From contig NC_043005.1 in assembly GCF_006345805.1 (NCBI RefSeq), positions 95,418,001 to 95,482,000 on the forward strand: a stretch of 64,000 nt of DNA, read 5' to 3'. The notes beneath the pieces were generated by a model. The model was given only the letters and a program-made list of their open reading frames with translations. It had not been told where the DNA came from and ran no database searches. The translations under genes were made by a program, and so were the position numbers. This stretch comes from Octopus sinensis (Eukaryota). The first letter of the stretch is position 1. Each line of letters opens with the position of its first letter. Of this stretch, positions 5,350 to 55,132 are shown in pieces.

Positions 5350-6789
5350 ATGAGGACGGGGCTAGAAAAGGTTGCCCTAAACATAGCCTGCCTCACCTCA
5401 CCCTGGTCAGCAAACCGCGGCTGGCGGGGATCCTTTCCAAGCGGTCGAAACAAAGAAAGAAGAAAACAAACAAAGGTGCTCACTTTCGCAACTTGGAACG
5501 TGAGAACTCTGCTTGACAACACCAAAGCGGACAGACCAGAGAGACGAACTGCCCTGGTGGCCAGAGAACTGAGCCGATACAGTGTCGATATTGCAGCACT
5601 GAGCGAGACCCGCCTTGCGGACAAAGGCCAGCTGACAGAGACAGGCGGCGGCTACACTTTCTTTTGGAGTGGTCGCAGCAGCGAAGAGCGTCGTGAGGCT
5701 GGTGTTGGTTTTGCCATTAAGTCAGTACATGTGCGGAAACTGGAAAGCCCCCCCGAGGGTATCAACGATCGGCTGATGAAGATGCAGCTCCCACTTGGAA
5801 ACAAGACTAGTGCGACCATCATCAGTGCTTACGCCCCCACCATGACCAACCCTGAAGAAATTAAGGACAGGTTCTATGAGGAACTCGACTCCCTCATCAC
5901 GTCAGCCCAGCCTGGGAAGCTCATCCTCCTTGGGGATTTTAATGCCCGTGTCGGGACTGACCACCAAGCCTGGCATCGCGTACTGGGAAAGCAAGGAATC
6001 GGAAAGTGCAACAGCAACGGACAGCTCCCCCTGCGTGCGTGTGCCTCTCATGATCTTACCATCGCCAACACCTTGTTCCGTCTGCCAACACGCAACAAGA
6101 CATCATGGATGCATCCACGCTCCAAACACTGGCATCTGATAGATTACGTCATCGTCAGGGCGAAAGACAGGCGGGACGTGAGACTGGTCAAAGCCATGTG
6201 CGGAGCTGACTGCTGGACGGACCATCGCCTCATCATCTCCAGGATGGATTTCTACATCCGACCTAAGAGAAGACCACAGGGTCAGAAAGTGACGAGGAAG
6301 CTTAACATCACGAAATTAAGGAACCAGCTGACTGCACAAGATCTCCAGTCACGTATGGACAGTAAGCTGTTGGACATTCGGAGTGACCAGTCCAGCATCG
6401 ATGAGCAGTGGGAATCATTCAGGGACACGGTTCATTCCATCGCCCTTGAAACTCTGGGCCAAATTACGAGGAACCACCAGGACTGGTTCGACGAAAACGA
6501 CCAGGAAATCCAAAAGCTCCTGGAAGAGAAACGCCGTCTGCTGCGGGCTCACCAAAATGATACCACCTGCACGGCAAAGAAGGCCGCTTTCAACAACATT
6601 CGCAGCACAGTCCAGGCTAAACTCCGCCTCATGCAAGATGCATGGTTAAGCGCCAAGGCGGATGAGATTCAGAGATACGCAGACAAACACGACACCAAGA
6701 AATTCTACGAGGCGCTGAAAGCTGTCTATGGACCGCAGTTCTCCTTTGGATCACCCCCCTGCTCAGCTCAGATGGAACCTCACTCCTGA
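5350..6789 (+). CDS. RTE LINE ORF, N-terminal part: apurinic-like endonuclease
   Basis: Motifs TWNVRTL, IAALSETR, SAYAPT, LLGDFNARVG, HWHLIDYV and WTDHRL. The frame shifts at the C6 run at 6754-6759. Confidence 0.93.
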   Translation: MRTGLEKVALNIACLTSPWSANRGWRGSFPSGRNKERRKQTKVLTFATWNVRTLLDNTKADRPERRTALVARELSRYSVDIAALSETRLADKGQLTETGGGYTFFWSGRSSEERREAGVGFAIKSVHVRKLESPPEGINDRLMKMQLPLGNKTSATIISAYAPTMTNPEEIKDRFYEELDSLITSAQPGKLILLGDFNARVGTDHQAWHRVLGKQGIGKCNSNGQLPLRACASHDLTIANTLFRLPTRNKTSWMHPRSKHWHLIDYVIVRAKDRRDVRLVKAMCGADCWTDHRLIISRMDFYIRPKRRPQGQKVTRKLNITKLRNQLTAQDLQSRMDSKLLDIRSDQSSIDEQWESFRDTVHSIALETLGQITRNHQDWFDENDQEIQKLLEEKRRLLRAHQNDTTCTAKKAAFNNIRSTVQAKLRLMQDAWLSAKADEIQRYADKHDTKKFYEALKAVYGPQFSFGSPPCSAQMEPHS

Positions 6790-8678
6790 CTAACAAGAGG
6801 CTGATCCTGGAGAGATGGGCGGAGCACTTCAACATCGTGCTCAACCGACCAGCCCAGATCAACGAGGAAGCCATCGCACGACTCCCCCAGGTGCCGACAA
6901 ACCACGAGTTGGCTGTTCCCCCTGCAGTCGGGGAAGTGAGCAGAGCCATCAAAAAAATGTCCACCGGCAAAGCTCCAGGCTCTGACGCCATCCCTGCAGA
7001 GGTGTTCAAGTCGGGAGGCCCCACCATGATCAGTCAGCTCACCAGCCTGTTCCAGTCGATGTGGGACAGGGAACAACTCCCTCAAGATTTCCGGGATGCA
7101 ACAATCGTCCACATTTATAAGCGGAAAGGAGATCGGCAGTCCTGCGACAACCACCGAGGTATTTCCCTCTTGTCCATAGCAGGCAAGATCCTGGCCCGGG
7201 TCCTGCTTGACCGCCTTCTGGAACACTTGGAGCAAGGCCTTCTCCCTGAGAGCCAGTGTGGCTTCCGTGCGGGTCGAGGGACCACTGACATGATATTCGC
7301 CGCCCGCCAGCTCCAGGAGAAATGCATGGAGCAGCACCTTGACCTCTGCATGACCTTTGTTGACCTCACCAAGGCCTTTGATACAGTCAGTCGGGAGGGA
7401 CTATGGAAGGTCATGGGAAATTTTGGTTGCCCCAGCAAATTTATTGCAATTGTCCGCCAGTTCCACGACGGAATGACAGCCAGAATCCTTGAGGACGGCG
7501 ACTCATCTGAAGCCTTCCAGGTGACCAACGGAGTCAGGCAGGGCTGTGTCCTGGCCCCAACACTGTTCAGCATCATGTTCTCGGCAATGATGTCCGACGC
7601 CTTTAGGGACTGCAAGTCCGGTATCAACATCAAGTACAGGACAGACGGGAAACTTTTCAACTCCAGGAGATTGCAGGCTGTCACAAAGGTGAGGGAGACA
7701 GTCGTCAGAGACTTTCTCTTTGCTGACGACTGCGCCCTTAATGCAATCGATGAGCAGGAGATGCAGCTCGAGATGGACAGGTTCTCATCAGCCTGTGACA
7801 ACTTCGGTCTCACCATCAGTGCCAAGAAAACCGAAGTAATGTTTCAGCCAGCCCCCGGCAAACAATACCATGAGCCTCAGATAAGGGTGAACGGACGGAT
7901 CTTACGAGTGGTGGAAAACTTCACCTACCTGGGCAGCACTCTCTCCTGCAATGCCAACATAGATGCTGAAACCATCAACAGAATCTCCAAGGCAAGCAGC
8001 GCGTTTGGGAGACTGCGAAAGAAAGTCTGGGAGCGGAGAGGAATCAGCCTCAACACCAAGCTGAAAGTCTACCGGGCAGTCGTGCTTACCACTCTACTAT
8101 ACGGCTGCGAGACGTGGACTGCTTACCGAAGGCACGAGCGCCAGATAAACCACTTCCATCTCAGGTGTCTTCGGAATCTCCTTCACATCCGCTGGCAGGA
8201 CAAAGTCCCAGACACGGAAGTTCTGAAGCAGGCAGATCTCCCTAGCACCATCACAATCATGCGCAAGGCCCAGCTGAGATGGGCAGGCCACGTCTCCCGC
8301 ATGTCCGACACTCGCATCCCAAAACAGCTCTTCTACGGTGAACTCGGCCAGGGCAGGCGCAAAGTCGGAGGGCAGAAAAAGCGCTACAAGGATAGTCTCA
8401 AGGTCTCTCTCAAAGACTTCTCCATCGGAACAGAGACCTGGGAGACACTTGCTGCCAACCGCTCATCCTGGCGCAGCGCAATCACCGTGGGAGCAGGGAC
8501 AGCCGAGGAGGGACAGATTCGGTCAGCGGAGCAGAAACGTCAGATGCGTAAAGTCAGAGCCGCCTGCACCAGTAGCACTGCCCCTACCCACTTCTGCCCC
8601 ACCTGTGGGAGGGGCTTCCTTGCCCGGATTGGCCTCACCAGCCACCTCCGGTCTCATGGCGGCAGTTCCATCAGATGA
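6759..8678 (+). CDS. RTE LINE ORF, C-terminal part: reverse transcriptase + C2H2 zinc finger
   Basis: The second frame reads LLSSDGTSLLTNKRLILERWAEHF from ~6759. Motifs: KAPGSD, ESQCGFR, FVDLTKAFD, GVRQGCVLAP, FADD, FTYLGS and CPTCGRGFLARIGLTSHLRSH. Confidence 0.93.
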   Translation: MLSSDGTSLLTNKRLILERWAEHFNIVLNRPAQINEEAIARLPQVPTNHELAVPPAVGEVSRAIKKMSTGKAPGSDAIPAEVFKSGGPTMISQLTSLFQSMWDREQLPQDFRDATIVHIYKRKGDRQSCDNHRGISLLSIAGKILARVLLDRLLEHLEQGLLPESQCGFRAGRGTTDMIFAARQLQEKCMEQHLDLCMTFVDLTKAFDTVSREGLWKVMGNFGCPSKFIAIVRQFHDGMTARILEDGDSSEAFQVTNGVRQGCVLAPTLFSIMFSAMMSDAFRDCKSGINIKYRTDGKLFNSRRLQAVTKVRETVVRDFLFADDCALNAIDEQEMQLEMDRFSSACDNFGLTISAKKTEVMFQPAPGKQYHEPQIRVNGRILRVVENFTYLGSTLSCNANIDAETINRISKASSAFGRLRKKVWERRGISLNTKLKVYRAVVLTTLLYGCETWTAYRRHERQINHFHLRCLRNLLHIRWQDKVPDTEVLKQADLPSTITIMRKAQLRWAGHVSRMSDTRIPKQLFYGELGQGRRKVGGQKKRYKDSLKVSLKDFSIGTETWETLAANRSSWRSAITVGAGTAEEGQIRSAEQKRQMRKVRAACTSSTAPTHFCPTCGRGFLARIGLTSHLRSHGGSSIR

Positions 8679-11218: not shown

Positions 11219-12493
11219 GGCTATTTGAAAACGTTATGAAAAAATACCGTTAAATAAAGGGAAATTACTCTTTTATAACTCTGCTTGCCTGCGTACTTAT
11301 ACATCGCTCGCATTTTTCGTCATAAAAATTATATAAAAATATATAAAAAAAATATATAAAAAATATATAAAAATATATAAAAATATATAAATTCTTCTTG
11401 GGACATAACATAGAAAGCATGTTCTATCTGTTTTCTTTAGGGAACCAAAAACGTAACAGAAATTTAGTCACATGTGGGCATGATCCGAAAAGCTCTGTCC
11501 TTGTATTTAGACATGTAGTAGGGTCTAAGCTGCTTTTCCAGATAAGCCATCTCTCCATGTCGCATAGACCGCACCTTCCGCTGCCGTTAGTATAGGGCTT
11601 ACATCTGGCCAAAATCTTCCATTGTATGTTATAATCGACACCTTTATCTCTTAAAGACCAAATATGATTAGACAATTGTGTCGCTTTTCTTTTGTTCCAG
11701 TGCCTAAAGCTCAAAGTGTGGTTATTGAACCTGGCCTTGAAATTACCATCTGTAAGGCCCACGTATTTCTTCGTCGAAACGGTGTCTTTAGTGGTTATAG
11801 AGTTTCCTTAGATCTTAATAAGAATATTTATAAGCCTTATAGGAAGCCCAATGATAGACTAAGTTATATTAATGTAGGTTCATGCCATCCCCCTATAGTA
11901 TTCAAAAATTTAGTTAAAAATATTAGTAAGAGGATTTCTAGCCTCTCATCTGATGAGGACATCTTCAATAGCGTTGCCCCAGTTTATAATAAGGCTTTAA
12001 AAGATAGTGGTTTTAGCGATAAAATAAAATATACACCTATCACTAAAATATACACCTATCAGTAAGGAAAAGGAATAATAGAAATAGGAAGGTCATCTGG
12101 TTTACGCCCCCTTACTCACCCGAGGTGGCCTTCAATATAGGTAAATGGAGAGATGGCTTATCTGGAAAAGCAGCTTAGACCCTACTACATGTCTAAATAC
12201 AAGGACAGAGCTTTTCGGATCATGCCCACATGTGACTAAATTTCTGTTACGTTTTTGGTTCCCTAAAGAAAACAGATAGAACATGCTTTCTATGTTATGT
12301 CCCAAGAAGAATTTATATATTTTTATATATTTTTATATATTTTTATATATTTTTTATATATTTTTTTATATATTTTTATATAATTTTTATGACGAAAAAT
12401 GCGAGCGATGTATAAGTACGCAGGCAAGCAGAGTTATAACAGAGTAATTTCCCTTTATTTAACGGTATTTTTTCATAACGTTTTCAAATAGCC

Positions 12494-14042: not shown

Positions 14043-15398
14043 ATGGAGTTGTTCAATATTAACGCCTCCATTAAGGATATCCCAATACCACCGAAAAAAG
14101 CCTTCCTTAAGGAAATTATTAACAAGACCAATGCATTTATCATCCGCATCAGATGGCTCGCCTTCTTCCACGACAATGAGGACCTAAAACGGACCAGTAA
14201 CGACGTCTCCCTTGAATATAAAAAACTATTTAAATCGAGGGGAACTCCTCCACCTAATCCTAGATTGAAGAAATTCGAAGATGATCTTTGGGACATCGTA
14301 AAGAATATTAAATTTCATAAATCACCCCTCAGGAATAAGCACCTCAGATACCTCGATAACGTCTCTAGAGATATAAACAGCTTGGATTCTATCCTGGTCC
14401 AATCAGATAAAACCGGCAACATTTATAAGCTTACCAAGAGCCATTATTTGGAACTGCTCGAAAAGGTGATACATAAGAATTACAGGACCACCAGTAGGAA
14501 TACTTCCAGACAGGCCAACTTAGAAACTAAACAGATTATGGAAACTTACGGATTACAGATGAAGACGGAACCATTGAACCCTAGGCAACCCAGATTCATC
14601 TTAAAAGCCCACAAGCATAACTTTCATACTAACCCAGCATTGCGGCTCATATACCCTTCCAGTTCAGACATCGGTACCCTTAGTAAATACATATTAGATA
14701 AGTATATCCCTACATTAATTAATAAATTAAAACTTAGCTTATGGTCCAGTTCTGTTCAAGTCGTAGATTGGTTTACTTCTATTACTGATAAGGCCAACAC
14801 TAAATTTATCCAATTCGATATATCTAGTTTCTATTCTTCAATCAACCCTATTATACTTAATAAGGCCCTATGGAACGCACACAATAAGGCAGGCCTCTCC
14901 AGGGAGGAAATTAGTGTGATATTGACTGCTAGGAAATCTTTCATCCAGTTCGATAGCAAGTTGTGGGTCCGTAGAGATACCCCTAATGCGTTTGATGTAC
15001 TAATGGGAAGTACAGACAGCGCCCAGATAGCCGATTTGGTCGGGATTTATATTCTTTATGAAATGGCCGACCAATTCCCGGACATCTGTGGAGGTCTTTA
15101 TCGCGACGATTGTCTGCTTTTCCTCCAAAACGTTTCGAACCAAAAAATACAGAAGGTTAAGAACAGATTAGTTAGGTTTTTTAGTAGAATGGGCTTGCGC
15201 ATAGTTTTTGACGATGAATTAACCAAAGCCAACTTCTTAGACATTACCCTCAATTTGCAGAATAACTCATACTTCCCTTATCATAAACCTTCCACAAATC
15301 TTAAATATATTAGCATTTTCAGTAATCATGCCAGGCCAATTACCGATAATTTAGTTAAAAACATATCTCTGAGACTGTCCAAATGTCGACATCTTTAA
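14043..15398 (+). CDS. PLE reverse transcriptase
   Basis: Motifs IKDIPIP..FIIRIRWLAFF, SDKTGN, KAHK..F..NP..RLI, QFDISSFYSSI, FDVLMGSTDSAQIADLVG, GLYRDD, NFLDITLNL and SNHA. A small deletion shifts the frame at ~15382. Confidence 0.92.
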   Translation: MELFNINASIKDIPIPPKKAFLKEIINKTNAFIIRIRWLAFFHDNEDLKRTSNDVSLEYKKLFKSRGTPPPNPRLKKFEDDLWDIVKNIKFHKSPLRNKHLRYLDNVSRDINSLDSILVQSDKTGNIYKLTKSHYLELLEKVIHKNYRTTSRNTSRQANLETKQIMETYGLQMKTEPLNPRQPRFILKAHKHNFHTNPALRLIYPSSSDIGTLSKYILDKYIPTLINKLKLSLWSSSVQVVDWFTSITDKANTKFIQFDISSFYSSINPIILNKALWNAHNKAGLSREEISVILTARKSFIQFDSKLWVRRDTPNAFDVLMGSTDSAQIADLVGIYILYEMADQFPDICGGLYRDDCLLFLQNVSNQKIQKVKNRLVRFFSRMGLRIVFDDELTKANFLDITLNLQNNSYFPYHKPSTNLKYISIFSNHARPITDNLVKNISLRLSKCRHL

Positions 15399-27426: not shown

Positions 27427-28092
27427 TATATATATATAATATATTAATAAATAAAACATATGCATATATACATACATATATGTACGTACCCACCTCTACA
27501 TGTATATATACACGCATATATGAGTACAGGACACCAAAAATACGTCGAACACAATGAGAAACGAAAACATAGACACAAAACCAAGGAACTGGACATTTTT
27601 CTTAAACAACAAAAAAATAGAGTACAGGACAAATAACACAAGGAAAAAACACCTTCTTCAGTCGCCATGGTTTCATCTACTCTGCGTTTCGAAGGTGAAT
27701 GCGAGACGCATCTTCGATGGAAACTTTCCTTCCTGCGAAAAGCAAATCAAATAAAATTTGAGATCTTTTTGCAGAGGGGTAAAAACGGTAACAAAAACAG
27801 GACAGTAACGACAGTACAAAATATAAGCAGTAAAAGACAGGACAGGGAAAATAACAAGACAAGAAGGGCTGTTAAGCCGAACGAAAAAAAGTATTACGAA
27901 CGCTATTTCTGTGGACGGCGAAGGGAGCAAAGAAAATTGCCGTCCACACCTCAAGAAGGTCAGGCGAGAAAGAAGGTGGCAAGGCTCTCGTCGCGGGTTA
28001 ACGGCGGGAGGGAGGAGGAGGAATAAATAATATATAAATTCAACAAGAATTTCCGGCGGTGCATGATTCGTTTGTCACTGTTATTTATGACA

Positions 28093-28147
28093 ACCCTAAA
28101 CCTAAAACCCTAACCCTAACCCTAAAACCTTAACCCTAACCCTAACC
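28093..28147 (+). repeat. Degenerate interstitial telomere-like (CCCTAA)n tract
   Basis: accctaaacctaaaaccctaaccctaaccctaaaaccttaaccctaaccctaacc. Confidence 0.75.
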
Positions 28148-28469
28148 CAAAAACCTTAAAGCTAAAACCAGTACAAATGAATGAACGATGTCATAAATAA
28201 CAGTGACAAACAAAAAATACACCACCGATAATTGTTGTTGACAAACAACGGCAGTAATTTTATTTGGCTGAATACACGTCATTGATTGGTTGAAATTACC
28301 GAAATACAAGAACTTTAACGTGAAATAACTTTGTAAATATAAGTTTTTCTCAAAAATGCTAAGAGTAAAAGATGTTTTATATGACACGTTCTACCAGTGT
28401 CCGAAGTTTGAAAGTATTTAGTTACAAAAAAATATTTTTTAAATCTGTCGGTCAAAAGGTAAAGATGGA

Positions 28470-29184
28470 AAACCTATTTTAAGCTTCGAATTGTGCTCCA
28501 TATTGCTTTCTCGACTGGAAAAAGACCATTTTTGCATCAAATCATTACTTGTGATGAGAAATGGATAAAAGTATGAGAACAGGACAGTGATTAGATGCAG
28601 GAGAGCCACCTAAACACAACTCAAACCCACCATTTCACCCTAAAAAGTTAGTGGTCACTGTATGGTGGTCTGCGAAGGGAGTTATTCATTATTCATTTTT
28701 GCAATAAGGAAAAACGGTAACAGCAATTGCCAGCAAATTGATTGTATGCATGAGAATTAGAAAAAGAAGCAACCCAGACTAGTGAATAGAGATGGCCCAA
28801 TTTTGCTGCACGACAATGCACGTCCTCACAATCCTAAAGCTACGGTCCAAAAGTTGCAAAACCTGAATTATGAGATTTTGCAGCATCCTCCCTATTGCCC
28901 TGATATCTCTTCTACTGATCATCATTTATTTAAGCATTTTGGGCTTTTCATAAGCAATAAAACATTCTTAAATAGAGAAGAGGTAATTGAAGCATTCGGA
29001 GAGTTTATCACAGCAAAAGAGGAATCTTTTTTTAAAGATGGAATATGTGACATAGAGAAACGTTGGGTAAACGTAATGAATGAACATGGATCATACTTTG
29101 ATTAAATAAATCAGTTGCGTGACACGTTTGAAACATCTCATTGTTACCTTTCAGATACAACATTTCATGTGAAACAACCTAATA
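28470..29184 (+). mobile_element. Mariner transposon 3' part (DD34D catalytic domain, frameshifted) with right TIR
   Basis: Motifs ITCDEKWI (~28545), HPKKLVVTVWW, LLHDNARPH and HPPYCPDISSTDHHLF. The end reads ...caacctaa|ta. Confidence 0.88.
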
Positions 29185-29638
29185 TATATATGTACTTATA
29201 TTTATATATAGACACACACTCATAAAAATATTTTTATACATATTCACGCTTAGATAGGTGTGCATGTGCGTCCGCGCGCGCGCGCGTGTGTGTGTGTGTG
29301 TGTGCGTGCATGTGTGTGACGCTCTATTTTTATATTGTATTTGACAAGAGTGATTGACGATTGTGTCTAAAAATTAGGGTGAAATTAATTTAAACAATGA
29401 GACATACAAAATCAAATTAAGAAATACATAATATTATTAATATATATTATTATTAATATATATCCGGTTCCGTTTTCAACAGAGAGAGACGTATTGCCTC
29501 TTATCTGTAAAAAAGTTTGCATAGATCGGCGAAATAACCCACTGTAGTTGCAAAACGTAAAACTCTAAGTCATAGAGATCACTACAACACTTTGGTTAAA
29601 AATATTTTTAAAAATATATATATAAATATATACATATA

Positions 29639-29701
29639 CACAGTAATTTTCATTTTCGCCGAAACGCACATGGTGCAAAAATAACTGAATCAAGTTATCT
29701 C
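29639..29701 (-). CDS. Weak candidate exon (DNLIQLFLHHVRFGENENYC)
   Basis: Strong acceptor ttcttttttctttcttgcag|. The donor (|gtatat) is weak. Confidence 0.25.
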
Positions 29702-29872
29702 CTGCAAGAAAGAAAAAAGAAGCATCTCTCCTGAAAAAAAATCCCGTAAACCAAAAAAAAATCCAGACCACATTGTTGGATTAAGTATCACTTTCATCTA
29801 TTTCATATTTTGTTTATTATTCTATTTTATCCTTCACTCAGGCCCACATCTTAGTTAAAGTTTCGATCGCCA

Positions 29873-32800
29873 TTTTGTTTGTTTACATTTTCAATATCTG
29901 TTCTCGATATAATAATTTTTCAGATACTCTATCTTCTAATTAGCCTTAAGATTAAATTAAATAACGTTTAATATTACCCACACTCTAATATAATTTTTGT
30001 TTGTTTACATTTTCAATATCTGTTCTCGATATAATAATTTTTCAGATACTCTATCTTCTAATTAGCCTTAAGATTAAATTAAATAACGTTTAATATTGAT
30101 AACGTCTAATTAGCCTTAAGATTAAATTAAATAACGTTTAATATTGTTTAATATTGTTAATAATTATTGTTAATTAGCCTTAAGATTAAATTAAATAACG
30201 TTTAATATTGTTTAATATTGTTAATAATTTTTCAGATATTCTATCTTCTAATTAGCCTTAAGATTAAATTAAATAACGTTTAATATTACCCATACTCTAA
30301 TATAATTTTTGTTTGTTTACATTTTCAATATCTATTCTCGATATAATAATTTTTCAGATACTCTATCTTCTAATTAGCCTTAAGATTAAATTAAATAACG
30401 TTTAATATTGATAACGTCTAATTAGCCTTAAGATTAAATTAAATAACGTTTAATATTGTTTAATATTCTTAATAATTATTGTTAATTAGCCTTAAGATTA
30501 AATTAAATAACGTTTAATATTGTTTAATATTGTTAATAATTTTTCAGATACTCTATCTTCTAATTAGCCTTAAGATCAAATTAAATAACGTTTAATATTA
30601 CCCACACTCTAATATAATTTTTGTTTGTTTACATTTTCAATATCTGTTCTCGATATAATAAATTTTCAGATACTCTATCTTCTAATTAGCCTTAAGATTA
30701 AATTTAAATAACGTTTAATATTGATAACGTCTAATTAGCCTTAGGATTAAATTAAATAACGTTTAATATTGTTTAATATTGTTAATAATTATTGTTAATT
30801 AGCCTTAAGATTAAATTAAATAACGTTTAATATTGTTTTAATATTGTTAATAATTTTTCAGATACTCTATCTTCTAATTAGCCTTAAGATTAAATTAAAT
30901 AACGTTTAATATTACCCACACTCTAATATAATTTTTGTTTGTTTACATTTTCAATATCTGTTCTCGATATAATAATTTTTCAGATACTCTATCTTCTAAT
31001 TAGCCTTAAGATTAAATTAAATAACGTTTAATATTAATAACGTCTAATTAGCCTTAGGATTAAATTAAATAACGTTTAATATTGTTTTAATATTGTTAAT
31101 AATTTTTCAGATACTCTATCTTCTAATTAGCCTTAAGATTAAATTAAATAACGTTTAATATTACCCACACTCTAATATAATTTTTGTTTGTTTACATTTT
31201 CAATATCTGTTCTCGATATAATAATTTTTCAGATACTCTATCTTCTAATTAGCCTTAAGATTAAATTAAATAACGTTTAATATTAATAACGTCTAATTAG
31301 CCTTAGGATTAAATTAAATAACGTTTAATATTGTTTAATATTGTAAATAATTATTGTTAATTAGCCTTAAGATTAAATTAAATAACGTTTAATATTGTTT
31401 TAATATTGTTAATAATTTTTCAGATACTCTATCTTCTAATTAGCCTTAAGATTAAATTAAATAACGTTTAATATTACCCACACTCTAATATAATATTAAT
31501 ATTGCTAATATATTTTCAGATACTCTATCTTCTAATTAGCCTTAAGATTAAATTAAATAACGTTTAATATTACCCACACTCTAATATAATTTTTGTTTGT
31601 TTACATTTTCAATATCTGTTCTCGATATAATAATTTTTCAGATACTCTATCTTCTAATTAGCCTTAAGATTAAATTAAATAACGTTTAATATTGATAACG
31701 TCTAATTAGCCTTAAGATTAAATTAAATAACGTTTAATATTGTTTAATATTGTTAATAATTATTGTTAATTAGCCTTAAGATTAAATTAAATAACGTTTA
31801 ATATTGTTTAATATTGTTAATAATTTTTCAGATACTCTATCTTCTAATTAGCCTTAAGATTAAATTAAATAACGTTTAATATTACCCACACTCTAATATA
31901 ATTTTTGTTTGTTTACATTTTCAATATCTGTTTTCGATATAATAATTTTTCAGATACTCTATCTTCTAATTAGCCTTAAGATTAAATTAAATAACGTTTA
32001 ATATTAATAACGTCTAATTAGTCTTAGGATTAAATTAAATAACGTTTAATATTGTTTAATATTGTAAATAATTATTGTTAATTAGCCTTAAGATTAAATT
32101 AAATAACGTTTAATATTGTTTTAATATTGTTAATAATTTTTCAGATACTCTATCTTCTAATTAGCCTTAAGATTAAATTAAATAACGTTTAATATTACGC
32201 ACACTCTAATATAATATTAATATTGCTAATATATTTTCAGATACTCTATCTCCTAATTAGCTTTAAGATTAAATAACGTTTTTACCCACACTCTAATATA
32301 ATATTAATATTGCTAATATATTTTCAGATACTCTATCTTCTAATTAGCCTTAAGATTAAATTAAATAACGTTTAATATTAATAACGTCTAATTAGCCTTA
32401 AGATTAAATTAAATAACGTTTAATATTGCTTAATATTGTTAATAATTTTTCAGATACTCTGTCTTCTAATTAGCCTTAAGATTAAATTAAATAACGTTTA
32501 ATATTACCCACACTCTAATATAATATTAATATTGCTAATATATTTTCAGATACTCTATCTCCAAATTAGCCTTAAGATTAAATAACGTTTTTACCCACAC
32601 TCTAATATAATATTAATATTGCTAATATATTTTCAGATACTCTATCTCCTAATTAGCCTTAAGATTAAACAACGTTTTTACCCACACTCTAATATAATAT
32701 TAATATTGCTATTAGCCTTAAGATTAAACAACGTTTTTACCCACACTCTAATATAATATTAATATTGCTAATACATTTTTAGATACTCTATCCCCTAATT

Positions 32801-32890
32801 AGCCTTAAGATTAAATAACGTTTTTACCCACAAACTTTAATATTGTTAATATTTCTTTTTCAAGTACTCTATCTTCTAATTAGCCTTAAT
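29873..32890. repeat. AT-rich higher-order tandem array (~38 copies of core taattagccttaagattaaattaaataacgtttaatatt; ~312-bp HOR)
   Basis: Cores at 29942, 30064, 30112, 30176, 30254, 30376 and onward, with spacings cycling 122/48/64/78. Units of 96 and 87 bp and shortened cores appear toward 32890. Confidence 0.95.
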
Positions 32891-32950
32891 ATCTTCCTGT
32901 CTTCTCTCGAACATAATTAGATAGATAAACGGATAGACGGATTATCCAGC

Positions 32951-33862
32951 ATGTCCAGAGCATGGAGACCTGACGAGCTGGATTTATTCGTACAAGCATG
33001 GGAGTGCGCCGGCGGAGATAGCCCTAGCGAGGTGATTGCGGCTGCGCTGAAGAGCAGAGGCTACAAGAGGACAGCGGCTCAGATGGAGCGAAAGAGACGG
33101 AAATTCGTGCGCTCATATGCGCTTGTACGGTCGCACATTGGCGCACTTGATGCCATCTTTGAGAACGAGCGGGGCAAAGATGGCAAGAATGGAGACGATG
33201 AAAGAAGTCACCCCCACCTGGTGGACGCCCGAGAGGAGGTTTTGAATGAGAAACCTGCCCGGGAAGTGAACCCAGGTGCAAGTTCTCCAACCGGCAGCAA
33301 GGGCCATGGAGACGGAGAACCCGGTGAAGAAGTATAGGGAGGAAGAAGAACTAAAAGAAGGACTGGAAGAGCTAAAGGAAAAGAAAAAGCTCAAGCAGGA
33401 CCAAAGGGTGAAACAACCAGGAATAGAAGTGGAACCGCAAAGGATGGAACCAAACAGCGCACACGGGTGTGTATGTTCTACCTGAGAGGTTCCTGCTGGC
33501 ATGGAAAGGAAGGTGCAGGCTGCCGCTTTGCACATCGGGGACCCTGCCACAGAGACACGAGGCAGATGGACAAACCATCAACACAAAGAAAAGGGATGGA
33601 CCACGCACCACCTGCCCCAAAGCGGAGGTACGCAGATGTTGTGCGCGCCACAAACCGCCAACATGATGTTGTCGAAAGAGCAGCTGCTGAGCAACAATCT
33701 TTTTTGTGCATGGCACAAAAGATTGTACAGCAGCTGACCTGGCTTCATCAAACCCAAGCCCGCAGGTGGGACTACCCACTATATACCAGACCACCACAGC
33801 AAACAGACACAGGATGGACACCGCCGGCAACAACGTACACCTCACCTCGATGCTCCTACTGA
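32951..33862 (+). CDS. LINE ORF1: N-terminal Myb/SANT-like (trihelix-type) domain + CCCH zinc finger; one in-frame stop at 33335-33337
   Basis: AWRPDELDLFVQAW...IAAALKSRGYKRTAAQMERKRRKF. The same frame continues after TAG into a basic linker and CMFYLRGSCWHGKEGAGCRFAH. Confidence 0.7.
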
Positions 33863-36798
33863 ACATCAGAGGACTGCAAACACTCAGTAACAGGACAAAG
33901 ATCCCGTTCCTGAGAGACTTTGTTGCATGCAATCAAGCCTTATGCATAGCACTTACGAAAACGCACCTGAAACCGGACATAGCAGATGCGGAGTTACACA
34001 TACCACAGTATGCTGTACTACGGACCGACAGGAAAGAAAGGAGTCATGGAGGTGTTGCTATGTACATCCGTGAGGACCTCACACCCCAGGTCCTCTTGTC
34101 ATACTCAAACTCGGTGTGTGACACACTAATTGTACATATTAGGCAACTTGATGTAGTTGTGTGTGCTACATATCGCCCTCCAGATGCCCCAAGCCATGTG
34201 GGCAAGTTTGAAGACTGCCTTATAAAAATAGAAGAAATTCTAACCACATTAGAACAACACATAGGTGTGCTTCTTATGGGAGACTTCAATCTGCCCAATG
34301 TCAGATGGCCCGAGGGCCTTTCTCTTCCAGGAATGACAAGATGTGAACGAGGACAGGCGAGGTCCCTCCTGAACCTCATCAACACCCTGTACATGGAGCA
34401 GGTAATACTCCAACCAACCAGAGCAGGCAACACACTGGATCTCTGCTTCACAAATGACATGGATCTCATCCATAATATGAAAGTGACACCGACACTACTC
34501 TCGGATCACAACATGATAGAGCTGACCATGTACGGGCCAAAAGAGAGCACGGACATGCAGCCTACAAGAAACCCTCAAAATCTTTCCAGCTTGAACTACC
34601 ATAAGGCAAACTGGAAACAAATTGAGAAAGAGATCCTCAAACAAAACTGGCCTAAATGTCTCTCCTCGCCAGACATCGACGTGAAATTTCAACAATTCAT
34701 GTCTGTAATGCAAGCCATATGCTACAAATGTGTCCCAGAGAGAAAGGCCACTGTACACAAGAACAAATCCCCAGAGAGAGGAAAATTTTAATGAGACGGC
34801 GTACGAAATTTTCAAATCGCCTAAACAAACAGATTGAAAGCAGTGAAAAGTCCCGCCTAAAAATAAAACTGTTGGAATCGAAAAATGTCTGCAACTCTCC
34901 CATGAAAAAGAAAGAGCAGACAAAGAAGCCTGGGCTATAGACAACATAAAATCTAACCCCAGAGCTTTCTACAGGTATGCCAAAGAAACAGCTACAGTGC
35001 ACTGTAGAAGGGCCACTCCTCGAAAAGGATGGCACACTTACAGGAAAACCAATGAGGGTAAGTGAAATGCTGAATGAGCAATTCAAGAGTGTTTTCACTC
35101 CACCCCTTGGGCATCTCCAAATCACCAATCCAACTGACTTTTTTACCACTGCAGATATAAAATCAGAGGCGGCGACGATAGATTACATCGATATAAAGGA
35201 AGACGATGTAACCAAGGCTATAGATGAAATGAAAACAGACTCAGCTACTGGCCCCGATGGATTCCCGGCAATCCTCCTAAAAGCATGTAAGAGAGTCCTA
35301 GCAAGACCACTGCAGTTCCTCTTTCAGAGCTTCCTTGCAGCTGGCAAACTTCCAGGAAAACTGAAGGAAGGTAAAATATGCCCCATTCATAAAGGAGGTA
35401 GCAGAGCGGAAGCCAAGAACTATAGACCTATCTCTCTGACCTCACACATCAGCAAGGTCATGGAACGAATAGTCAGAAGGAAGCTGATCACCTTCCTTGA
35501 AGAGAATGACTTGCTGCCCGACACCCAACATGGTTTCCGACCAGGGAGAAGCTGTTTAACTCAGCTCCTACAACACTATGACTGGGTGCTGAAACGGCTG
35601 CTCAACCACTCAAATGTGGAAGTGATATATCTCGACTTTGCAAAGGCCTTTGATAAAGTCGATCATGGAATAATATGTCACAAACTGCGTGATCTCAACA
35701 TAGTTGGAAAACTGGGAGAATGGCTTCATGACTTCTGAAGGATAGAAGTCAGGTGGTAGTAGCCAATGGGGCCACCTCCATTAACACACAAATAGTGAGC
35801 GGTGTTCCGCAGGGCACTGTTCTGGGACCACTATTCATAATGGCCCTCTCAGACATGCCCTCAGCCACGCAGAGAGCCACGATCACAAGTTATGCAGATG
35901 ATACAAAAGTTTCACAGGCAATACAGAACCCTGAGGACACTAAACACCTGCAATGTGAGCTGGACGAAATATACAAGTGGGCTGAAAAGAATAGCATGCA
36001 GTTCAATGCTGGAAAGTTTCAAGCTTTATACTATCAGCATGCAAAACTGAATGCAATACCCAATGAATACACTGGACCCGGAGGGATTGCAATCCCAGAG
36101 GCACAATCAGTGCGTGACCTGGGTATTCACATGAGTGATGACGCGACCTTTCATGTACATGTTGCTAAACTGACAATGAAATGTAGACGGCTGGATGGAT
36201 TCTTAGAACCTTTAGAACAAGAGAACAAGAATACATGATGGTCCTCTGGAAGACACTTGTCCTAAGCCACTTTGACTATTGCTCTCAGCTATGGTCACCA
36301 TCCAGTGTCAAGTTGATCACAGAACTTCAGGCGATCCAACGAAGCTACACGAAGAAGATAGCCTCTATGCAGAATGTAAGCTACTGGGAAAGACTCAAGA
36401 GATTAAAATTATATTCCCTGGAGCGTAGGCGGGAAAGATATGCCATAATATACATCTGGAAGATCCTGGAGGGAAGTGTCCTGAACTTTGGCATCGAGAG
36501 TTACGCAAATGCCAGAACTGGGCGCCACTGCGTGGTGCCTAGGACTCCAAACCTGCCATCAAGATGTAGGACAAGATTCTATGATAGCCTGGGCTTCCGA
36601 GGCCCACAGCTCTTCAATATCCTCCCGAAGAACCTGAGAGACCTGCATGGGGTGGATACAGATGTCTTTAAAATGAAGCTGGATCTCTTCCTGTCAGGTG
36701 TCCCAGATGAACCAACTTCACGGCAGGAGGGGCAGATGAGGGCAGCTGCATCGAACTCTCTCATGCACCAAATAGCAGTTGCTAGAAACCCTCCATGA
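33706..36798 (+). pseudogene. LINE ORF2 (APE endonuclease + RT), broken by several small frameshifts
   Basis: Motifs LLNIRGL, HGGVAMY, YRPP, MGDFNLP, NTLDL, SDHN, ATGPDG, NYRPISLTS, QHGFR, YLDFAKAFDKV, SGVPQGTVLGP, YADDT, RDLG and LYSLERRRER. Shifts near 34770, 34880, 34990, 35735 and 36190. Confidence 0.92.
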
Positions 36799-36983
36799 AG
36801 TGAAACCAAGTAGCAACACCAAATGGCGGTGCCCCAGCATCGCCACAGCTCATAAGCTGAAACTAGAATCAATCAATCAATCAATCAATCATATTACCCA
36901 GACTTAGGCTTAAGTTTCATGCATTTCACAACAATCATATATATGTGTGTGTGTGTGGGTGTATTGTGTGTACGTGTATATGA

Positions 36984-37058
<75 letters not shown>

Positions 37059-37353
37059 ATGTGTGTGTATGTGTGTGTGAGTGTGTATATGTGTATATCT
37101 TCGTGTCTGTGTTTGCCCTACTACCGATTGACAACTGATTCGTTTCTACTCTAGGCACAAGTCCCGAAATTCTGGGGGTTGTGGGGCAATCGATTACATC
37201 GACCCCAGTACGAAACTGGTACTTAATTTATCGATCCCGAAAGGATGAAAGGCAAAGTCGACCTCGGCGGAATTTGAACTCAGAACGTAAAGACAGACGG
37301 AATACCGCTAAGCATGCTGTACACGTTTCATGACGTCCTGTACCCACATATGC

Positions 37354-37456: not shown

Positions 37457-39489
37457 TAGTGTAATAAATAAAATATATGCATACATACAAACATATATGT
37501 ACGTACCTACATCTACATGTATATATACATGCATATATAAATATATATACGTGAGTACAGGACACCACAACTAGACGTAGAACTCAACGAGAAACGAAAA
37601 CGGAAAAACAAGCATGGAATAAACCATTTTTTTACAACAGAAAAACAGAGTACAAGACAAACTACACAAGGAAAAATCCCCTTCATCAGCTGTCTCTAGT
37701 TCAACTCTAGCGTGTTTCGAAGGTAAGACCGAAAGAAAAAATATAACACAAACAGGACGTAAAAACGATACAAATAAAAATACAAAATAAAATACAAGAT
37801 AAAAATACATGTACAAGAAAATACAATACGAGAAATAAAAATAATAAACAAGAAACATTTTTTCTTTCATTTTTTTCTTTCTTTGTTTTTACCCCTCTGC
37901 GAAGTAATTTTATTTTAATTCTCTCGCAGGAAGGGCTAGTTTTACGAGTCGTGTTCTGTCTTACCTTCGAAACACGCTAGAGTTGAACTAGAGATAGCCG
38001 ATGAAGGGGATTTTTCCTTGTGTAGTTTGTCTTGTACTCTGTTTTTCTATTGTAAAAAAATGGTTTGTTCCATGCTTGTTTTTCCGTTTTCGTTTCTCGT
38101 TGAGTTCTACGTCTAGTTGTGGTGTCCTGTACTCACGTATATATATTTATATACGAGGGGCGTTCAATAAGTAATGCCCCTGACCCACTTCCCAAAGCAG
38201 TAGAGCAACGACACTTGGCACAGTTATTAGTCTTTTCCTACATAGGAACTACCCAGAGTTATGCATTTCTCCCATCGTTTGATACAGCTCTGGAGACCGT
38301 TTTTGTAGAAGACCCCAGCTTGGTCCTCCAACCACGACGTGACTTCAGAAATCAAGGCTGCATCATCTGGGAAACGCTTTCCTTTCAAAATCAACTTCAT
38401 GGTTGGGAAGAGGTGAAAATCAGAGGGTGCAAGGGGAGGAGTTCATAGCTGCACGCCTGTGCTTCTGATCTGGCGACACGCGAGTTGTGGACCGGAGCGT
38501 TGTCCTGCAGGAGGAGGATGCCTTTGCTGATCTTGCCCCGCCTCTTGATTTTGATAGCTTCTCTTAATTTCCTCAAAAGTGAAGCTTAATAGGCTCCTGT
38601 AACTGTGGTACCCTTTGCCAGGAAATCTGTCATCACTACTCAGTCCTGGTCCCAGAAGACTGTGAGCATAACCTTGTCAGCGGAGGGCTGCACCCTTGCC
38701 TTCTTTGGAGGAGGTGAGTCACGGTGCTTTCCCTGCATTGACTGGGCTTTGGTCTATGGATCATAGTGATAGACCCAGGTTTTACCCTGTGTGATCAGTC
38801 TTTTGAAACATTTTGACTCATCTTCTTGGCACATCTCCAAATTCATCCTCGAGCTCTCAACGCGTTCTTGCTTCTGGAAAGGTGTGAGCAACCTGGAAAT
38901 CCATCTGGCAGACACCTTTTGCATATGCAAATGGTCATGAATGATAGTTTCCACAGACCCGGTACTAATCTTGACCTTATGGGCTATTTGGCGAATAGTT
39001 ATGCGTTGACCTTCCAAAATGGCAGCCTCAACTTGACGGACAGATGCCTCATCAACGGCAGAAGGGGGCGACCAGATCTGGGAGCTGTTTCCACAGAGTT
39101 CTGACTGTGTTTGAATTCACAATGCCAGCGTTTTACAAGGTCATATGATGGGGCATCATCACCATAAGTTACTTTCATTTCATCAAAAGTCTCCCGTGGT
39201 GTGCGTCCTTTCAAATACAAAAACCAGATCACTGCTCGACACTCAACAGGCTCCATTTCACACTTGACTCAGTTCAAACACCTGTAAATCAGAAACCACC
39301 ATTAGTTCAGAGCTGTAATTCGCCACTTAATCTATAGAGGTATAAATAAGTGCACATGCTAGATCAGACAACTGCAAGTGGGTCAGGGGCATTACTTATT
39401 GAACGCCCCTCGTATGCATGTATATATACATGTAGATGTAGGTACGTACATATATGTTTGTATGTATGCATATATTTTATTTATTACAC

Positions 39490-46249: not shown

Positions 46250-47340
46250 TAAAAGCACTAACATCGAAACAGCAGAGACTAAATGGCTACATTGTAACAC
46301 GAAATAAAATAAGATCTTATACCCTAAGATGGACTAAATCTTATAAAGAAGAAAGTAAAGATTTTAAAGCAACAGTAGGCTGGTGCAATCGTTTTATGAA
46401 CAGAAAAAAATCTGGTAATAAGGGAAAAAATTAAAATCGCCCCAAAACTCCCGAAAGATCTCGATCACAAAGTAACCAGTTTTCACCAGTTCATCATCCA
46501 GCAGAGAAAAGGGCGTTAGTTTCCATTGTCTCTTATTGGAAATATCGATGAAACTCCATTAAACTTTGACATGCTGGGTAACAAAACAGTAGATTTGAAA
46601 GGAGTAAAAACAGTGCACGTTAAAAGCACAGGATATGAGAAAACGAAGTTTATAGTGATATCCTGCATGGCTGATGGTACAAAATTAAAACCCATGGTTA
46701 TTTTTAAATGTAAAAACAAAGCCCAAAATAGATTTTCCTCCTGGCATTTTTGTTCATTTTCATGGGAAAGGGTAGAGGGACGAGAGTGGTGTGAAATTAT
46801 GGATTGAGAATATTTGGAACAGGCGGCCAGGTGGCATACGAAATGAACGCAGTTTATTGGTTTGCGATATGTTTCGTAGCCACGTAACAGCAAATACTAA
46901 AACCCGGTTATCCAAAACCAATACTGATATTGCTGTTATTCCTGGTGGTTTGACTTCTATACTGCAACCACTTGATGTCAGTTTAAACAAACCATTTAAA
47001 GATAATGTGAGAAAGCAGTGGAATGACTGGATGATGAATAGAGAAAAATCTTTTATAAATGGTGGAGCTATGCATGCTGTTTCACTTGATGTTCTCTGTG
47101 ATTTTGTTATAAAGGCATCGGACAAAGTTAAAGTAGAAAGTGAGGTAAAATCATTTTTAAAATGCGGTATCTCTAATGCCATCGATGGTACCGAAGACGG
47201 TACAATAGCGACGACGAAATCGATTCACCAGAACCAGGCGGGAATCCTTACAATGACGGCATATATGATGAATCTTGTGATATGTATGAGAAACTTATAG
47301 AAACAAGTAGTGATGATTGTGAGGAATTTGATGGGTTTTA
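46250..47340 (+). mobile_element. pogo/Tigger-like transposase remnant (CENP-B HTH + DDE)
   Basis: Motifs FKATVGWCNRFM (~46360), GNIDETPLNFDM, ADGTKLKPMVIFK, LLVCDMFRSH and GGLTSILQPLDVSLNKPFK. Frameshifted; ends not defined. Confidence 0.88.
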
Positions 47341-53723: not shown

Positions 53724-54735
53724 TATCCGAAGTGCACAATATTATATATCCTTTACGGCTGATCTTACCAGTCAGTTTCGCGCTGGGGATTCAATGCTCG
53801 TCAGAGGTAGCCGATATGGAATGAAATATGGCGACTGCTCTCTATTTTCAGAGGTGAATAGACACATCCGGTTTGCGGTTGCTGTGAAAAGATGGTGAAA
53901 CGAAACGAGTTGGGGATTAAGTTTGGAGTTATATCCCCTGGTTCTGAAACATTGCCACTGGGGTGTTTATGTTGCAAGTCGGTAAGAGTTATCTTAAAGT
54001 GATTGTGGGAAATGTGTTCGTCCTTAAGGTTGGTGTTCTTGTGGAAATGGAATATGTGTAGTGATATTATGTGTATAACCTTTGCAGGTGATGTGGGCAT
54101 ATGCACCTGTGTTCGTTAGGGTGTTTTCTTTCTTTAATGTATTGGCGCAGCACCAGCAAGGTCATTACATGGTTTTAAACCAATAACGGAAGGAGTAGAG
54201 CTAGGTTTATCCAATTTGATACGGTGGATTTTTATTCATCAATATTGAGGTAGCTCCTTTTTAAGGCACTGGACTTCACTAGGGCCTGCACTGAAGTCAG
54301 TGACGAGGACATACGCATTATCATGCACGCCAGAAGAACCCTACTTTTCAGTAAGGGGTCGGCCTGGGCCAAACGAACTGATCCAGCAGGTTCCTTCGAC
54401 AGTGCTGACGTGTGTGACCACGTTGGTTTCTTCATCCTAGATGTACTTAAAGGGAGATCCCCTTCAACTAGCGTTGGCCTCTACGCGCTGGCAATATCCA
54501 GTGTGACAAACGACCACACGCTAGATAAGCTAAGAAAGGACCTCACCAGCACCATAAACACTCTTGGACTGAAGCTCATGATTGAAGCCAACCTGAAAAC
54601 GATGGATTTCTTTGGTATGACCCTGGACTTGGAGTCCAGTGCCTATAGACCCTTTAGGAAGCCAAACGAGAAGCTATCATACATTAACACAGGTTCCTGT
54701 CATCCAGCCATAGTTTTCATGAACCTGGAAAATGC
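53720..54735. mobile_element. Degenerate PLE: inverted 3' end (-, ~53720-54200) joined to RT fragment (+, ~54220-54735)
   Basis: Motifs FYSSI, ARRTLLF, GSFDSADVCDHVG, DFFGMTLDL..AYRPFRKPNEKLSYINTGSCHP. Same type as the 11790 and 14043 elements. Confidence 0.8.
53756..53813 (-). ncRNA. Type I hammerhead ribozyme (canonical core)
   Basis: Minus strand reads cggctacct-CTGACGA-gcattgaatccccagcgc-GAAA-ctgactg-GTA-agatcagccg. It lies in an inverted PLE 3' end. Confidence 0.78.
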
Positions 54736-54785
54736 TTTTCAAGCAAAGATAATTGTTGTTATGGCGCATTTGTGTGGCGTTAAGG

Positions 54786-55132
54786 TTAATGGAAATCATG
54801 GAGACCATATCTGCAAGTAGTATACCCATCATGACTACCCGTCTGATAAGGGTACACAAGGCACATGCATCACAACCATATGTGCGTGACATGGTGATCT
54901 CATATCAAGATAAACAGCACATGACCTTGCAGGTGGGGCCCAGTTAGAATTTTCTTCTAGTCGAGTAACCCATCCTGCTCAAAAGGTCCCTGAATAAGGG
55001 TTGTTTAAGGATGTTGAACGAAACACCCATGTTTCCAGAGGTGAATTATTCAAACCCCAAAGAATCCCTCTCAACACATGGTTATGATGCTCCCCCACTA
55101 CTTCTGTTCATGACCAGAGATGCACATATCCT
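54786..55132 (+). repeat. 347-bp direct repeat, copy 1 (unclassified)
   Basis: Near-identical to 58495-58841. Confidence 0.9.

What the first reader, a model, noticed from the sequence alone, without database searches (positions are those of the whole stretch)
29850..33862. 3-kb higher-order repeat array fused to a LINE whose ORF1 carries a Myb/SANT-like DNA-binding domain
Seen: about 38 copies of a near-invariant ~38-bp core are separated by a small set of recurring linkers. Unit lengths 122/48/64/78 give a 312-bp HOR, and later units are 96/87 bp. The array ends ~60 bp before the ORF1 ATG (32951), and units decay toward the ORF. It begins right after TTAGTT (29851) and a YY1-type CGCCATTTT (29868-29876), and the long unit carries a forkhead-type TGTTTAC. 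Known: mouse L1 has tandem-monomer 5'UTR promoters, and human L1 has a YY1 site near its start. Inference: the array is an expanded 5'UTR of this LINE (a satellite arising inside a retroelement), and ORF1p might bind its own repeats for autoregulation or targeting.
Basis: partly seen in the sequence, partly recalled or inferred. Interest (0 to 1): 0.8.

Follow-up and report, generated by a model that had tools for sequence, protein, structure and literature searches.

The report
Octopus LINE grows satellite inside leader
This is one copy of a young octopus jumping-gene family whose copies carry a variable block of tandem repeats inside their leader sequence (the longest block seen is here), and whose first protein is predicted to have a Myb-like fold plus a zinc finger, a pairing absent from the surveys read, which likely serves general nucleic-acid binding rather than recognition of those repeats.

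Summary
The array is real: 38 cores at 29940-32890, with 122/48/64/78-bp units forming a 312-bp higher-order repeat. It is part of the 5'UTR of a young LINE family. All 40 copies found by ORF1 and all 20 found by the leader carry it. Of 28 loci found by the core, 27 continue into the LINE and one ends at an assembly gap.

The element begins at about 29463, with a 400-bp unique leader before the array, so the array is internal, not terminal as in mouse L1. The YY1 motif is in only 4 of 51 full-length copies. Their median is 16 cores; this copy, with 38, is the largest. The higher-order repeat is a duplication that captured the leader's end.

ORF1 (303 aa in unbroken copies; stop at codon 129 here) has a predicted Myb/trihelix fold, a CCCH finger and a long helix. 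Five sister families keep this ORF1 and a similar third helix but have other repeats or almost none, which argues against ORF1p reading its own array. Verdict: a new variant of a known kind (CR1-group-like LINE).

The parts
29423..29462 (.). AT-rich 5' junction; no target-site duplication demonstrated
   Evidence: (TA) run of 6 or more before the start in 39 of 40 copies vs 24% of random flank 20-mers; TSD search not above null
29463..29870 (+). Unique ~400-bp leader, true 5' end of the LINE; starts TCCGGTTCCG (ETS-like ACTTCCGG/TTCCGG in families C and G; motif label recalled); likely internal promoter
   Evidence: shared by 25 of 39 other copies; 72-78% identical in families C and G; 5' ends
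29868..29876 (+). YY1-like CGCCATTTT; not conserved in the family
   Evidence: GCCATTTT in 4 of 51 full-length copies, GTCATTTT/G in 43
29873..29939 (+). Leader-end segment (contains TGTTTAC), re-copied into every 122-bp unit
29940..32256 (+). Younger part of the array: seven 249-314-bp higher-order blocks (122/48/64/78-79) and two 96-bp units; 31127-31535 and 31848-32256 form a 409-bp second-level duplication (4 differences)
32257..32890 (+). 3' part of the array (87/48/78/96/87/59/87/81 units, mostly short core); likely the older part
32891..32950 (+). Non-repeated tether before ORF1, also present in subfamilies B and C
32951..33862 (+). ORF1, 303 codons, interrupted here by TAG at 33335-33337
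   Evidence: 300-305 aa open in 23 of 71 family-A copies
32951..33175 (+). Predicted Myb/SANT/trihelix-fold domain (three helices, long third helix)
   Evidence: Pfam E 8.6e-4; AF2 pLDDT 85; VIA Z 8.3 ARR1, 7.8 LUX, 7.6 GT-1, 7.1 Zeste
33470..33535 (+). CCCH-type zinc finger (C174, C182, C191, H195), downstream of the stop in this copy
   Evidence: nearly invariant in 12 aligned ORF1s; Pfam zf-CCCH in 8 of 12 at E<=0.1, best 0.0014
33629..33769 (+). Conserved long C-terminal helix of ORF1 (residues 227-273); possible oligomerisation helix, untested
33814..36798 (+). ORF2, AP endonuclease + reverse transcriptase, broken into several frames in this copy
   Evidence: 998 aa open in L032
36799..36891 (+). 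Short 3'UTR and (AATC)n tail (36867-36891)

Best explanation
The stretch is the 5' half of one full-length copy of a young octopus LINE whose 5'UTR is a unique ~400-bp leader (likely the internal promoter), an internal T-rich, G-poor tandem array that differs in length between copies and likely grows by template slippage and unequal exchange, and a short tether, followed by an ORF1 predicted to hold a Myb/trihelix-fold domain, a CCCH finger and a long helix that likely bind nucleic acid without reading the array's sequence. Shown: the anatomy, family-wide presence, copy-number variation, turnover of repeat units between sister families, and the origin of the 312-bp block from a duplication that took in the leader's end. 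Inferred: transcription starts at ~29463 from the leader. The UTR interior likely tolerates any T-rich, G-poor sequence, so duplications arise there and are carried along by retrotransposition. ORF1p likely packages the RNA (CCCH finger, basic linker), while the Myb-like domain would contact DNA or chromatin in a way common to all the families, possibly at the TA-rich sites where they sit.
For: Array upstream of ORF1 in 40 of 40 ORF1-ascertained copies. Array after the leader in 20 of 20 leader-ascertained loci. LINE body after the array in 14 of 15 and 13 of 13 core-ascertained loci; the exception ends in an N gap. Common 5' end at ~29463. 9-38 cores, median 16, in 51 full-length copies. Subfamily C has at most one core-like copy and amplifies CT-rich units instead; F has a different short array, one G copy has a private array, E only one duplication. 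All these UTRs are 38-45% T and 7-13% G. L032 and L069 have bodies identical over 3927 bp and the same 3' flank but differ in their higher-order blocks. 3 of 49 5' junctions carry stuttered copies of the first bases. ORF2 pN/pS 0.10-0.15, ORF1 about 0.55-0.8 between subfamilies. Median 0.44% divergence among 47 copies. Weak hint only: contigs of two runs guessed to be RNA, from two studies, begin at 29460 and 29463, and leader and first core are contiguous in them.
Against: No promoter, start site or binding was measured, and the RNA status of the runs is a guess. No full-length family-A/B copy lacks the array, and the window's array has 0 ATG in 3075 bp (shuffles 25, but the units are not independent), so the array may be under more constraint than a passive spacer. 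The L032/L069 difference and the 38-unit length could be assembly artefacts. The Myb call rests on a sub-threshold Pfam hit and fold scores near the background of small helical domains (Foldseek E>0.1; Z 7-8).
Confidence: 0.72

Rival explanations
1. The array is a functional enhancer block, working like mouse L1 monomers but placed downstream of the start: each core offers host factor sites (TAATTA and GATTA homeodomain-type words; labels recalled) and more copies give more transcription.
For: The core is nearly invariant (26 exact 39-mers in the window; central CG kept in 702 of 794 cores scanned). It was amplified from at most one copy in C to 3-15 in B and 9-38 in A, and A supplied most of the copies retrieved. 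Mouse and rat L1 monomers carry transcription signals (PMC5381506, passages).
Against: The family is so young (0.44%) that invariance is expected. Sister families thrive with other or almost no repeats. The array is about 20% GC, unlike the CpG-island monomers described for L1.
Confidence: 0.2
2. ORF1p binds its own array through the Myb-like domain, for autoregulation or cis-recognition.
For: The fold matches DNA-binding Myb/GARP/trihelix domains; the domain is net basic (13 K/R vs 9 D/E) with an RKRR patch in helix 3; A and B share both the core and a 95% identical helix 3.
Against: F has helix 3 90% identical to A and no core; C, D, E and G likewise keep the domain with 0-1 cores. pN/pS is 0.5-0.6 in the domain, so no adaptive tracking. 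The Trp and Asn usual in Myb recognition helices (recalled) are replaced by Arg/Lys and Glu.
Confidence: 0.07
3. An independent satellite lies next to, or was inserted into, the LINE by chance.
For: The array here is more than twice the family median.
Against: 27 of 28 core-ascertained loci continue into ORF1 and the last ends in a gap; a single core-like precursor sits at the same place in subfamily C.
Confidence: 0.01

Closest known systems
Mouse and rat L1 5'UTR (tandem monomers + tether); horse, elephant and cow L1 5'UTR repeats (PMC5381506, passages)
   Same: Tandem repeats of variable number in a LINE 5'UTR, a non-repeated tether before ORF1, and UTR replacement between families; the cow L1 UTR has a long T-rich repeat region.
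   Different: Here the array is internal, behind a 400-bp unique leader; about 20% GC, no CpG island; built of 48-122-bp units with higher-order blocks; the YY1 motif is not conserved; ORF1 is not the L1 coiled-coil/RRM/CTD type.
Vertebrate CR1-group elements with 5' repeat arrays (PMC13343379, section 15 and passages)
   Same: APE + RT ORF2 and a repeat array near the 5'UTR.
   Different: Those arrays have 1-5 subunits of 100-500 bp and occur in elements without ORF1; this family has ORF1 and 9-38 cores.
Jockey-superfamily ORF1 types I-V (PMC4120745, parts 1-2 of 6 and word search)
   Same: Short modular ORF1 with a zinc finger and a helical segment upstream of ORF2.
   Different: The survey of 448 elements lists RRM, CCHC, PHD, Tnp22, esterase and zf/lz domains; the words myb, SANT, trihelix, MADF and CCCH do not occur. 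This ORF1 would fall in 'type V, unclassified'.
Myb-domain proteins of other mobile elements: R2 N-terminal Myb; PIF/Harbinger ORF1 Myb/trihelix (recalled; PMC9921582 seen only as a search listing)
   Same: A Myb-like fold encoded by a transposable element.
   Different: R2 is a single-ORF element with a restriction-like endonuclease, and Harbinger is a DNA transposon. Here the domain is in ORF1 of an APE-type LINE and binding is untested.

Membership tests
APE-type LINE (non-LTR retrotransposon) | ORF2 with AP endonuclease and reverse transcriptase | tested here: met
   Pfam Exo_endo_phos_2 E 7e-13 and RVT_1 E 1.9e-14; 998-aa open ORF2 in L032; best PDB match human L1 ORF2p, E 5e-24
APE-type LINE (non-LTR retrotransposon) | Dispersed copies, 5' truncation, simple-repeat 3' tail, no LTRs | tested here: met
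   (AATC)n tail in the 62 copies whose 3' end was found; of 39 other copies, 4 are truncated in the leader, 9 in the array and 1 is cut by a contig end
CR1 clade / CR1 group | RT phylogeny with classified reference elements | not testable with these tools
   The 120 best RT relatives carry no clade names. The assignment rests on recalled motifs (YLDFAKAFDKVDH, SGVPQGTVLGP, C-terminal ERLKRLKLYSLERRR), the short 3'UTR and the simple-repeat tail.
CR1 clade / CR1 group | ORF1 of a described type (PHD, RRM/CCHC, Tnp22, esterase) | tested here: not met
   No such Pfam family in 12 ORF1s at E<=0.1; the papers read say ORF1 is variable within the group, so this does not exclude membership
Mouse-L1-type monomer promoter | Monomers form the 5' terminus of the element | tested here: not met
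   Unique leader of ~480 bp precedes the first core
Mouse-L1-type monomer promoter | CpG-island monomers / conserved YY1 site | tested here: not met
   Array about 20% GC; GCCATTTT in 4 of 51 copies
Mouse-L1-type monomer promoter | Monomers drive transcription | not testable with these tools
   Needs reporter assays or capped 5' reads
Myb/SANT/trihelix domain | Three-helix Myb-like fold | tested here: met
   AF2 helices 7-19, 26-35, 42-79, pLDDT 85; the best VIA rows are mostly Myb/GARP/SANT/trihelix domains, top Z 8.3, rmsd 1.9 over 57 residues; Foldseek probability 0.98 for a MYB domain but E 0.34
Myb/SANT/trihelix domain | Pfam Myb_DNA-bind_4 gathering score | tested here: inconclusive
   20.1-21.5 bits vs cut-off 27; 6 of 20 homologs hit at E<=0.1; Atlas hits all under 0.9
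Myb/SANT/trihelix domain | Sequence-specific DNA binding | not testable with these tools
   No binding data; SANT domains share the fold without binding DNA (recalled)
Free-standing satellite DNA | Arrays outside the parent element | tested here: not met
   0 of 28 core-ascertained loci shown to be free of the LINE

The most novel reading that the evidence does not exclude
This octopod LINE clade carries a new ORF1 type in which a trihelix/Myb domain binds DNA with sequence preference, either tethering the RNP to TA-rich insertion sites or binding the element's own 5'UTR, so that ORF1p doubles as a targeting or autoregulatory factor while the UTR acts as a nursery for new higher-order satellites.
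Probability: 0.2. Interest if true: 0.8.

Novelty: new variant of a known kind. Interest (0 to 1): 0.47.

Why it matters
Two things go beyond a routine LINE annotation.

First, the ORF1 architecture (Myb/trihelix fold + CCCH finger + long helix) is shared by seven related families and subfamilies in this genome, down to about 70% ORF2 identity. It is not among the ORF1 types in the surveys read. If the domain binds DNA, ORF1p would be more than an RNA chaperone.

Second, the family shows the birth of a higher-order repeat step by step in natural copies: at most one core in C, 3-15 in B, 9-38 in A, then 312- and 409-bp blocks here. Sister families amplified other units at the same place. That makes slippage during reverse transcription versus post-insertion expansion directly testable.

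Repeats in LINE 5'UTRs are themselves already known, which caps the interest.

Tried and rejected
Splice-acceptor array (units contain TTTTCAG): rejected. There are 0 acceptor-like sites in the window's array vs 6.8 expected, and they are enriched in only 1 of 12 UTR interiors. No joint skipping from the leader was listed.

Selection against upstream ATG: 0 ATG in the window's array, but B, C, D, F and G UTRs have up to 25, and CG>TG (3) vs CG>CA (5) core variants show no bias. Not shown.

Positive selection on the Myb domain: not found.

ORF1/ORF2 tree incongruence: not found. F is outside A+B+C in both trees; only branch lengths differ, 0.22 vs 0.016 on the F stem (18 representative copies, family G left out).

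Target-site duplications: mean best match 5.1 vs 4.7 null in 18 of 49 copies with less TA-rich 3' flanks. Empty-site search: only the window matched.

Expression: no RNA holder listed.

Trimer prediction for ORF1 residues 222-278: no verdict.

Word-indexed protein searches found 0 and 1 relatives, whereas the full HMMER scan found 33. PDB sequence search with the ORF1 profile: nothing under E 0.26. Atlas, whole ORF1: no usable hit. Earlier scan notes: none.

Literature searches for a Myb/SANT/trihelix ORF1 in LINEs and for octopus CR1 anatomy listed no such description. The library lacks most subscription papers and Repbase/Dfam entries, and I opened no supplements.
Full report
Observation. 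The array is as described: 38 copies of a core beginning TTAGCCTTAAGATT at 29940-32880, with units 122,48,64,78 repeated and later 96,87,48,78,96,87,59,87,81 (Tandem Repeats Finder period 312). Of the cores, 32 are long, 5 short and 1 partial. Seven higher-order blocks of 249-314 bp differ by 0-8 substitutions, and 31127-31535 recurs at 31848-32256 with 4 differences in 409 bp. The region is about 20% GC. Downstream lie ORF1 (32951-33862, TAG at 33335-33337), a broken endonuclease-RT ORF2 (33814-36798) and an (AATC)n tail.

Is the array part of the element? I sampled the genome three ways. By ORF1: 40 best of 571 candidates; all 40, the window included, have 3-38 cores upstream. By the long core: 614 exact matches, 0 for the reversed control. 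The first 100 listed fall in 23 clusters, 8 already held; of the 15 new ones, 14 continue directly into the LINE and L077 ends at an N gap. By the short core: 294 matches; I fetched the 13 clusters among the first 100 listed that had no ORF1 hit on record, and 13 of 13 have ORF1 next. By the leader: 40 best of 194 candidates, 20 of the 24 new ones fetched; 20 of 20 have the array and 18 reach ORF1 (one contig end, one locus with a gap). Chance adjacency is excluded for the loci examined.

Where does the element start? Not at 29850. Similarity to other copies extends back to about 29463, where (TA)n gives way to TCCGGTTCCG. 25 of 39 other copies reach this point, 4 are truncated in the leader, 9 in the array, and 1 is cut by a contig end. 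The first core is about 480 bp inside. Among 51 of 75 family-A loci holding both leader and ORF1, core number is 9-38, median 16, and the window is the maximum (one further locus, L133, showed 5 cores). The YY1-type word is present in 4 of the 51; the forkhead-type word is single in 44 of 51 and eightfold here. The reason is structural: the 122-bp unit is the head of a 96-bp unit joined to the last ~67 bp of the leader, so the 312-bp block is a duplication that captured the leader's end. The same junction occurs in L032, L126, L082 and L134. Related 5' ends in families C and G read ACTTCCGG/TTCCGG or ACTTCCAG, like the GACTTCCGGTG start given for lizard L1 (PMC5381506, passage). Its reading as an ETS-type promoter word is recalled. 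Contigs from two runs guessed to be RNA, from two studies, begin at 29460 and 29463 and run unspliced from leader to first core. This is a weak hint only: the loose-end table was cut and the RNA status is a guess.

Age and polarity. 47 family-A bodies differ from the column-wise commonest letter by a median 0.44%. ORF1 is open for 300-305 aa in 23 of 71 copies, and ORF2 for 998 aa in L032. Short cores concentrate within 600 bp of the ATG and are the only form in 9 of 9 subfamily-B copies, while long cores lie further upstream. The 3' units are therefore likely older, not decayed.

Turnover of the repeats. Protein searches of the genome gave related families; I fetched 20 copies of B/C and 20 of D-G. 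B (ORF1 93% aa) has the leader, one core-like precursor, a GT-rich stretch, then up to 15 cores. C (84%) has the leader at 72-78% identity, at most one core-like copy, and amplifies CT-rich units instead. F (ORF1 69%, ORF2 95-96% nt) has no match to the A leader, and its UTR resembles that of D (ORF2 71-73%). G (ORF2 74-76%) shares the A leader at 72%, and one G copy has a private array of 5 or more units. E has a single duplication. All these UTRs are 38-45% T and 7-13% G. So composition and position persist while the repeated sequence does not, and UTR parts appear to have been exchanged between lineages. ORF1 and ORF2 trees agree in topology, so a swap of ORF1 itself is not shown.

How the array changes. 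L032 and L069 are identical over 3927 bp of body and 221 of 222 bp of 3' flank, yet differ in their higher-order blocks. That fits post-insertion unequal exchange or an assembly error. Stuttered copies of the first bases at 3 of 49 5' junctions and leader duplications in L046 and L155 fit re-priming by the reverse transcriptase. Both mechanisms are inferred.

ORF1. A full HMMER scan found 33 proteins at E<=0.001. Of the 10 looked up, the 6 with names are Octopus proteins, and an Argonauta protein is 64% identical in RT. The N-terminal model (pLDDT 85) has three helices with a long third helix. The best structural matches are ARR1 (Z 8.3), LUX (7.8), GT-1 (7.6) and Zeste (7.1), and Foldseek gives MYB domains high probability but E>0.1. 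These scores are near the tool's background for small helical domains, but the list is consistent and agrees with the sub-threshold Pfam hit. A CCCH finger and a C-terminal helix (227-273) are conserved, separated by a disordered linker. Between subfamilies ORF1 pN/pS is about 0.55-0.8 overall and 0.5-0.6 in the Myb-like part, against 0.10-0.15 in ORF2: constrained, faster, not adaptive. Helix 3 is 95% identical to A in B, 80% in C, 90% in F, 70% in E, 60% in D and 55% in G, although only A and B have the array. This is the main argument against ORF1p reading its own repeats.

Insertion sites. A (TA) run of 6 or more lies just before the start in 39 of 40 copies and just after the tail in 46 of 62, against 24% of random flank 20-mers. 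No target-site duplication was demonstrated, and whether the 5' run is target or filler is open. A domain common to all families would fit a common site preference better than a family-specific array; this is a hypothesis.

Comparison with what is known. Tandem monomers plus tether in mouse and rat L1, internal duplications in horse and elephant L1 and T-rich repeats in cow L1 are described (PMC5381506, passages). Arrays of 1-5 subunits occur near the 5'UTR of ORF1-less CR1-group elements (PMC13343379, section 15 and passages). A survey of 448 Jockey-superfamily ORF1s lists no Myb, SANT or CCCH domain (PMC4120745, parts 1-2 of 6 and word search); neither word occurs in an L1-wide survey (PMC5203782, word search). 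Octopus papers seen as passages (PMC9115989, PMC13282606, PMC10294476) describe an RTE element, count 13 recently active CR1 families, or mention an unclassified I-group clade, without this anatomy. CR1 membership is recalled from motifs, not tested. Supplements and Repbase/Dfam entries that I did not see may already hold this family.

Verdict. The array is a real, family-wide, internal 5'UTR repeat, with this copy the extreme case. The unusual ORF1 and the traceable birth of a higher-order repeat are the parts worth following. Interest 0.47; new variant of a known kind.

Noticed in passing
window 36892-36916: The 3' flank right after the tail resembles array words (ATATTACCCA.AC, TTAG.CTTAAG); the 21-mer tested is unique in the genome. 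Unexplained, possibly chance.
   Followed up: partly
window 5350-8678 (+): Near-complete second LINE with EN-like and RT-like ORFs of 479 and 573 aa and a C-terminal C2H2-like motif; RTE-like by recall.
   Followed up: no
window 38154-39412 (-): Mariner-like DNA transposon with long terminal inverted repeats flanked by TA and a broken transposase; a second mariner-like remnant at about 28500-29100.
   Followed up: partly
window 28092-28159: Interstitial telomere-like (AACCCT)n repeat.
   Followed up: no
window 11664-12065, 14043-15398, 54323-54820; 46869-47300: ORFs resembling Penelope-like RT/GIY-YIG pieces and a pogo/Tigger-like transposase piece (labels recalled).
   Followed up: no
P0012 residues 381-446: A lipin-like protein record (label recalled) ends in a stretch matching family-F ORF1: exon capture or a gene-model fusion.
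   Followed up: no
L128, L136, L139 5' junctions: Partial repeats of the element's first bases interleaved with (TA)n, suggesting that part of the 5' TA run is made during integration.
   Followed up: partly
L115-L119 (family F): ORF2 95% identical to the window's family but ORF1 only 69% (aa) and a different 5'UTR shared in part with family D; stem length 0.22 in ORF1 vs 0.016 in ORF2.
   Followed up: partly
window 37140-37320: Short interspersed repeat resembling the octopus SINE (recalled), into whose neighbourhood a further repeat and the mariner are nested.
   Followed up: no
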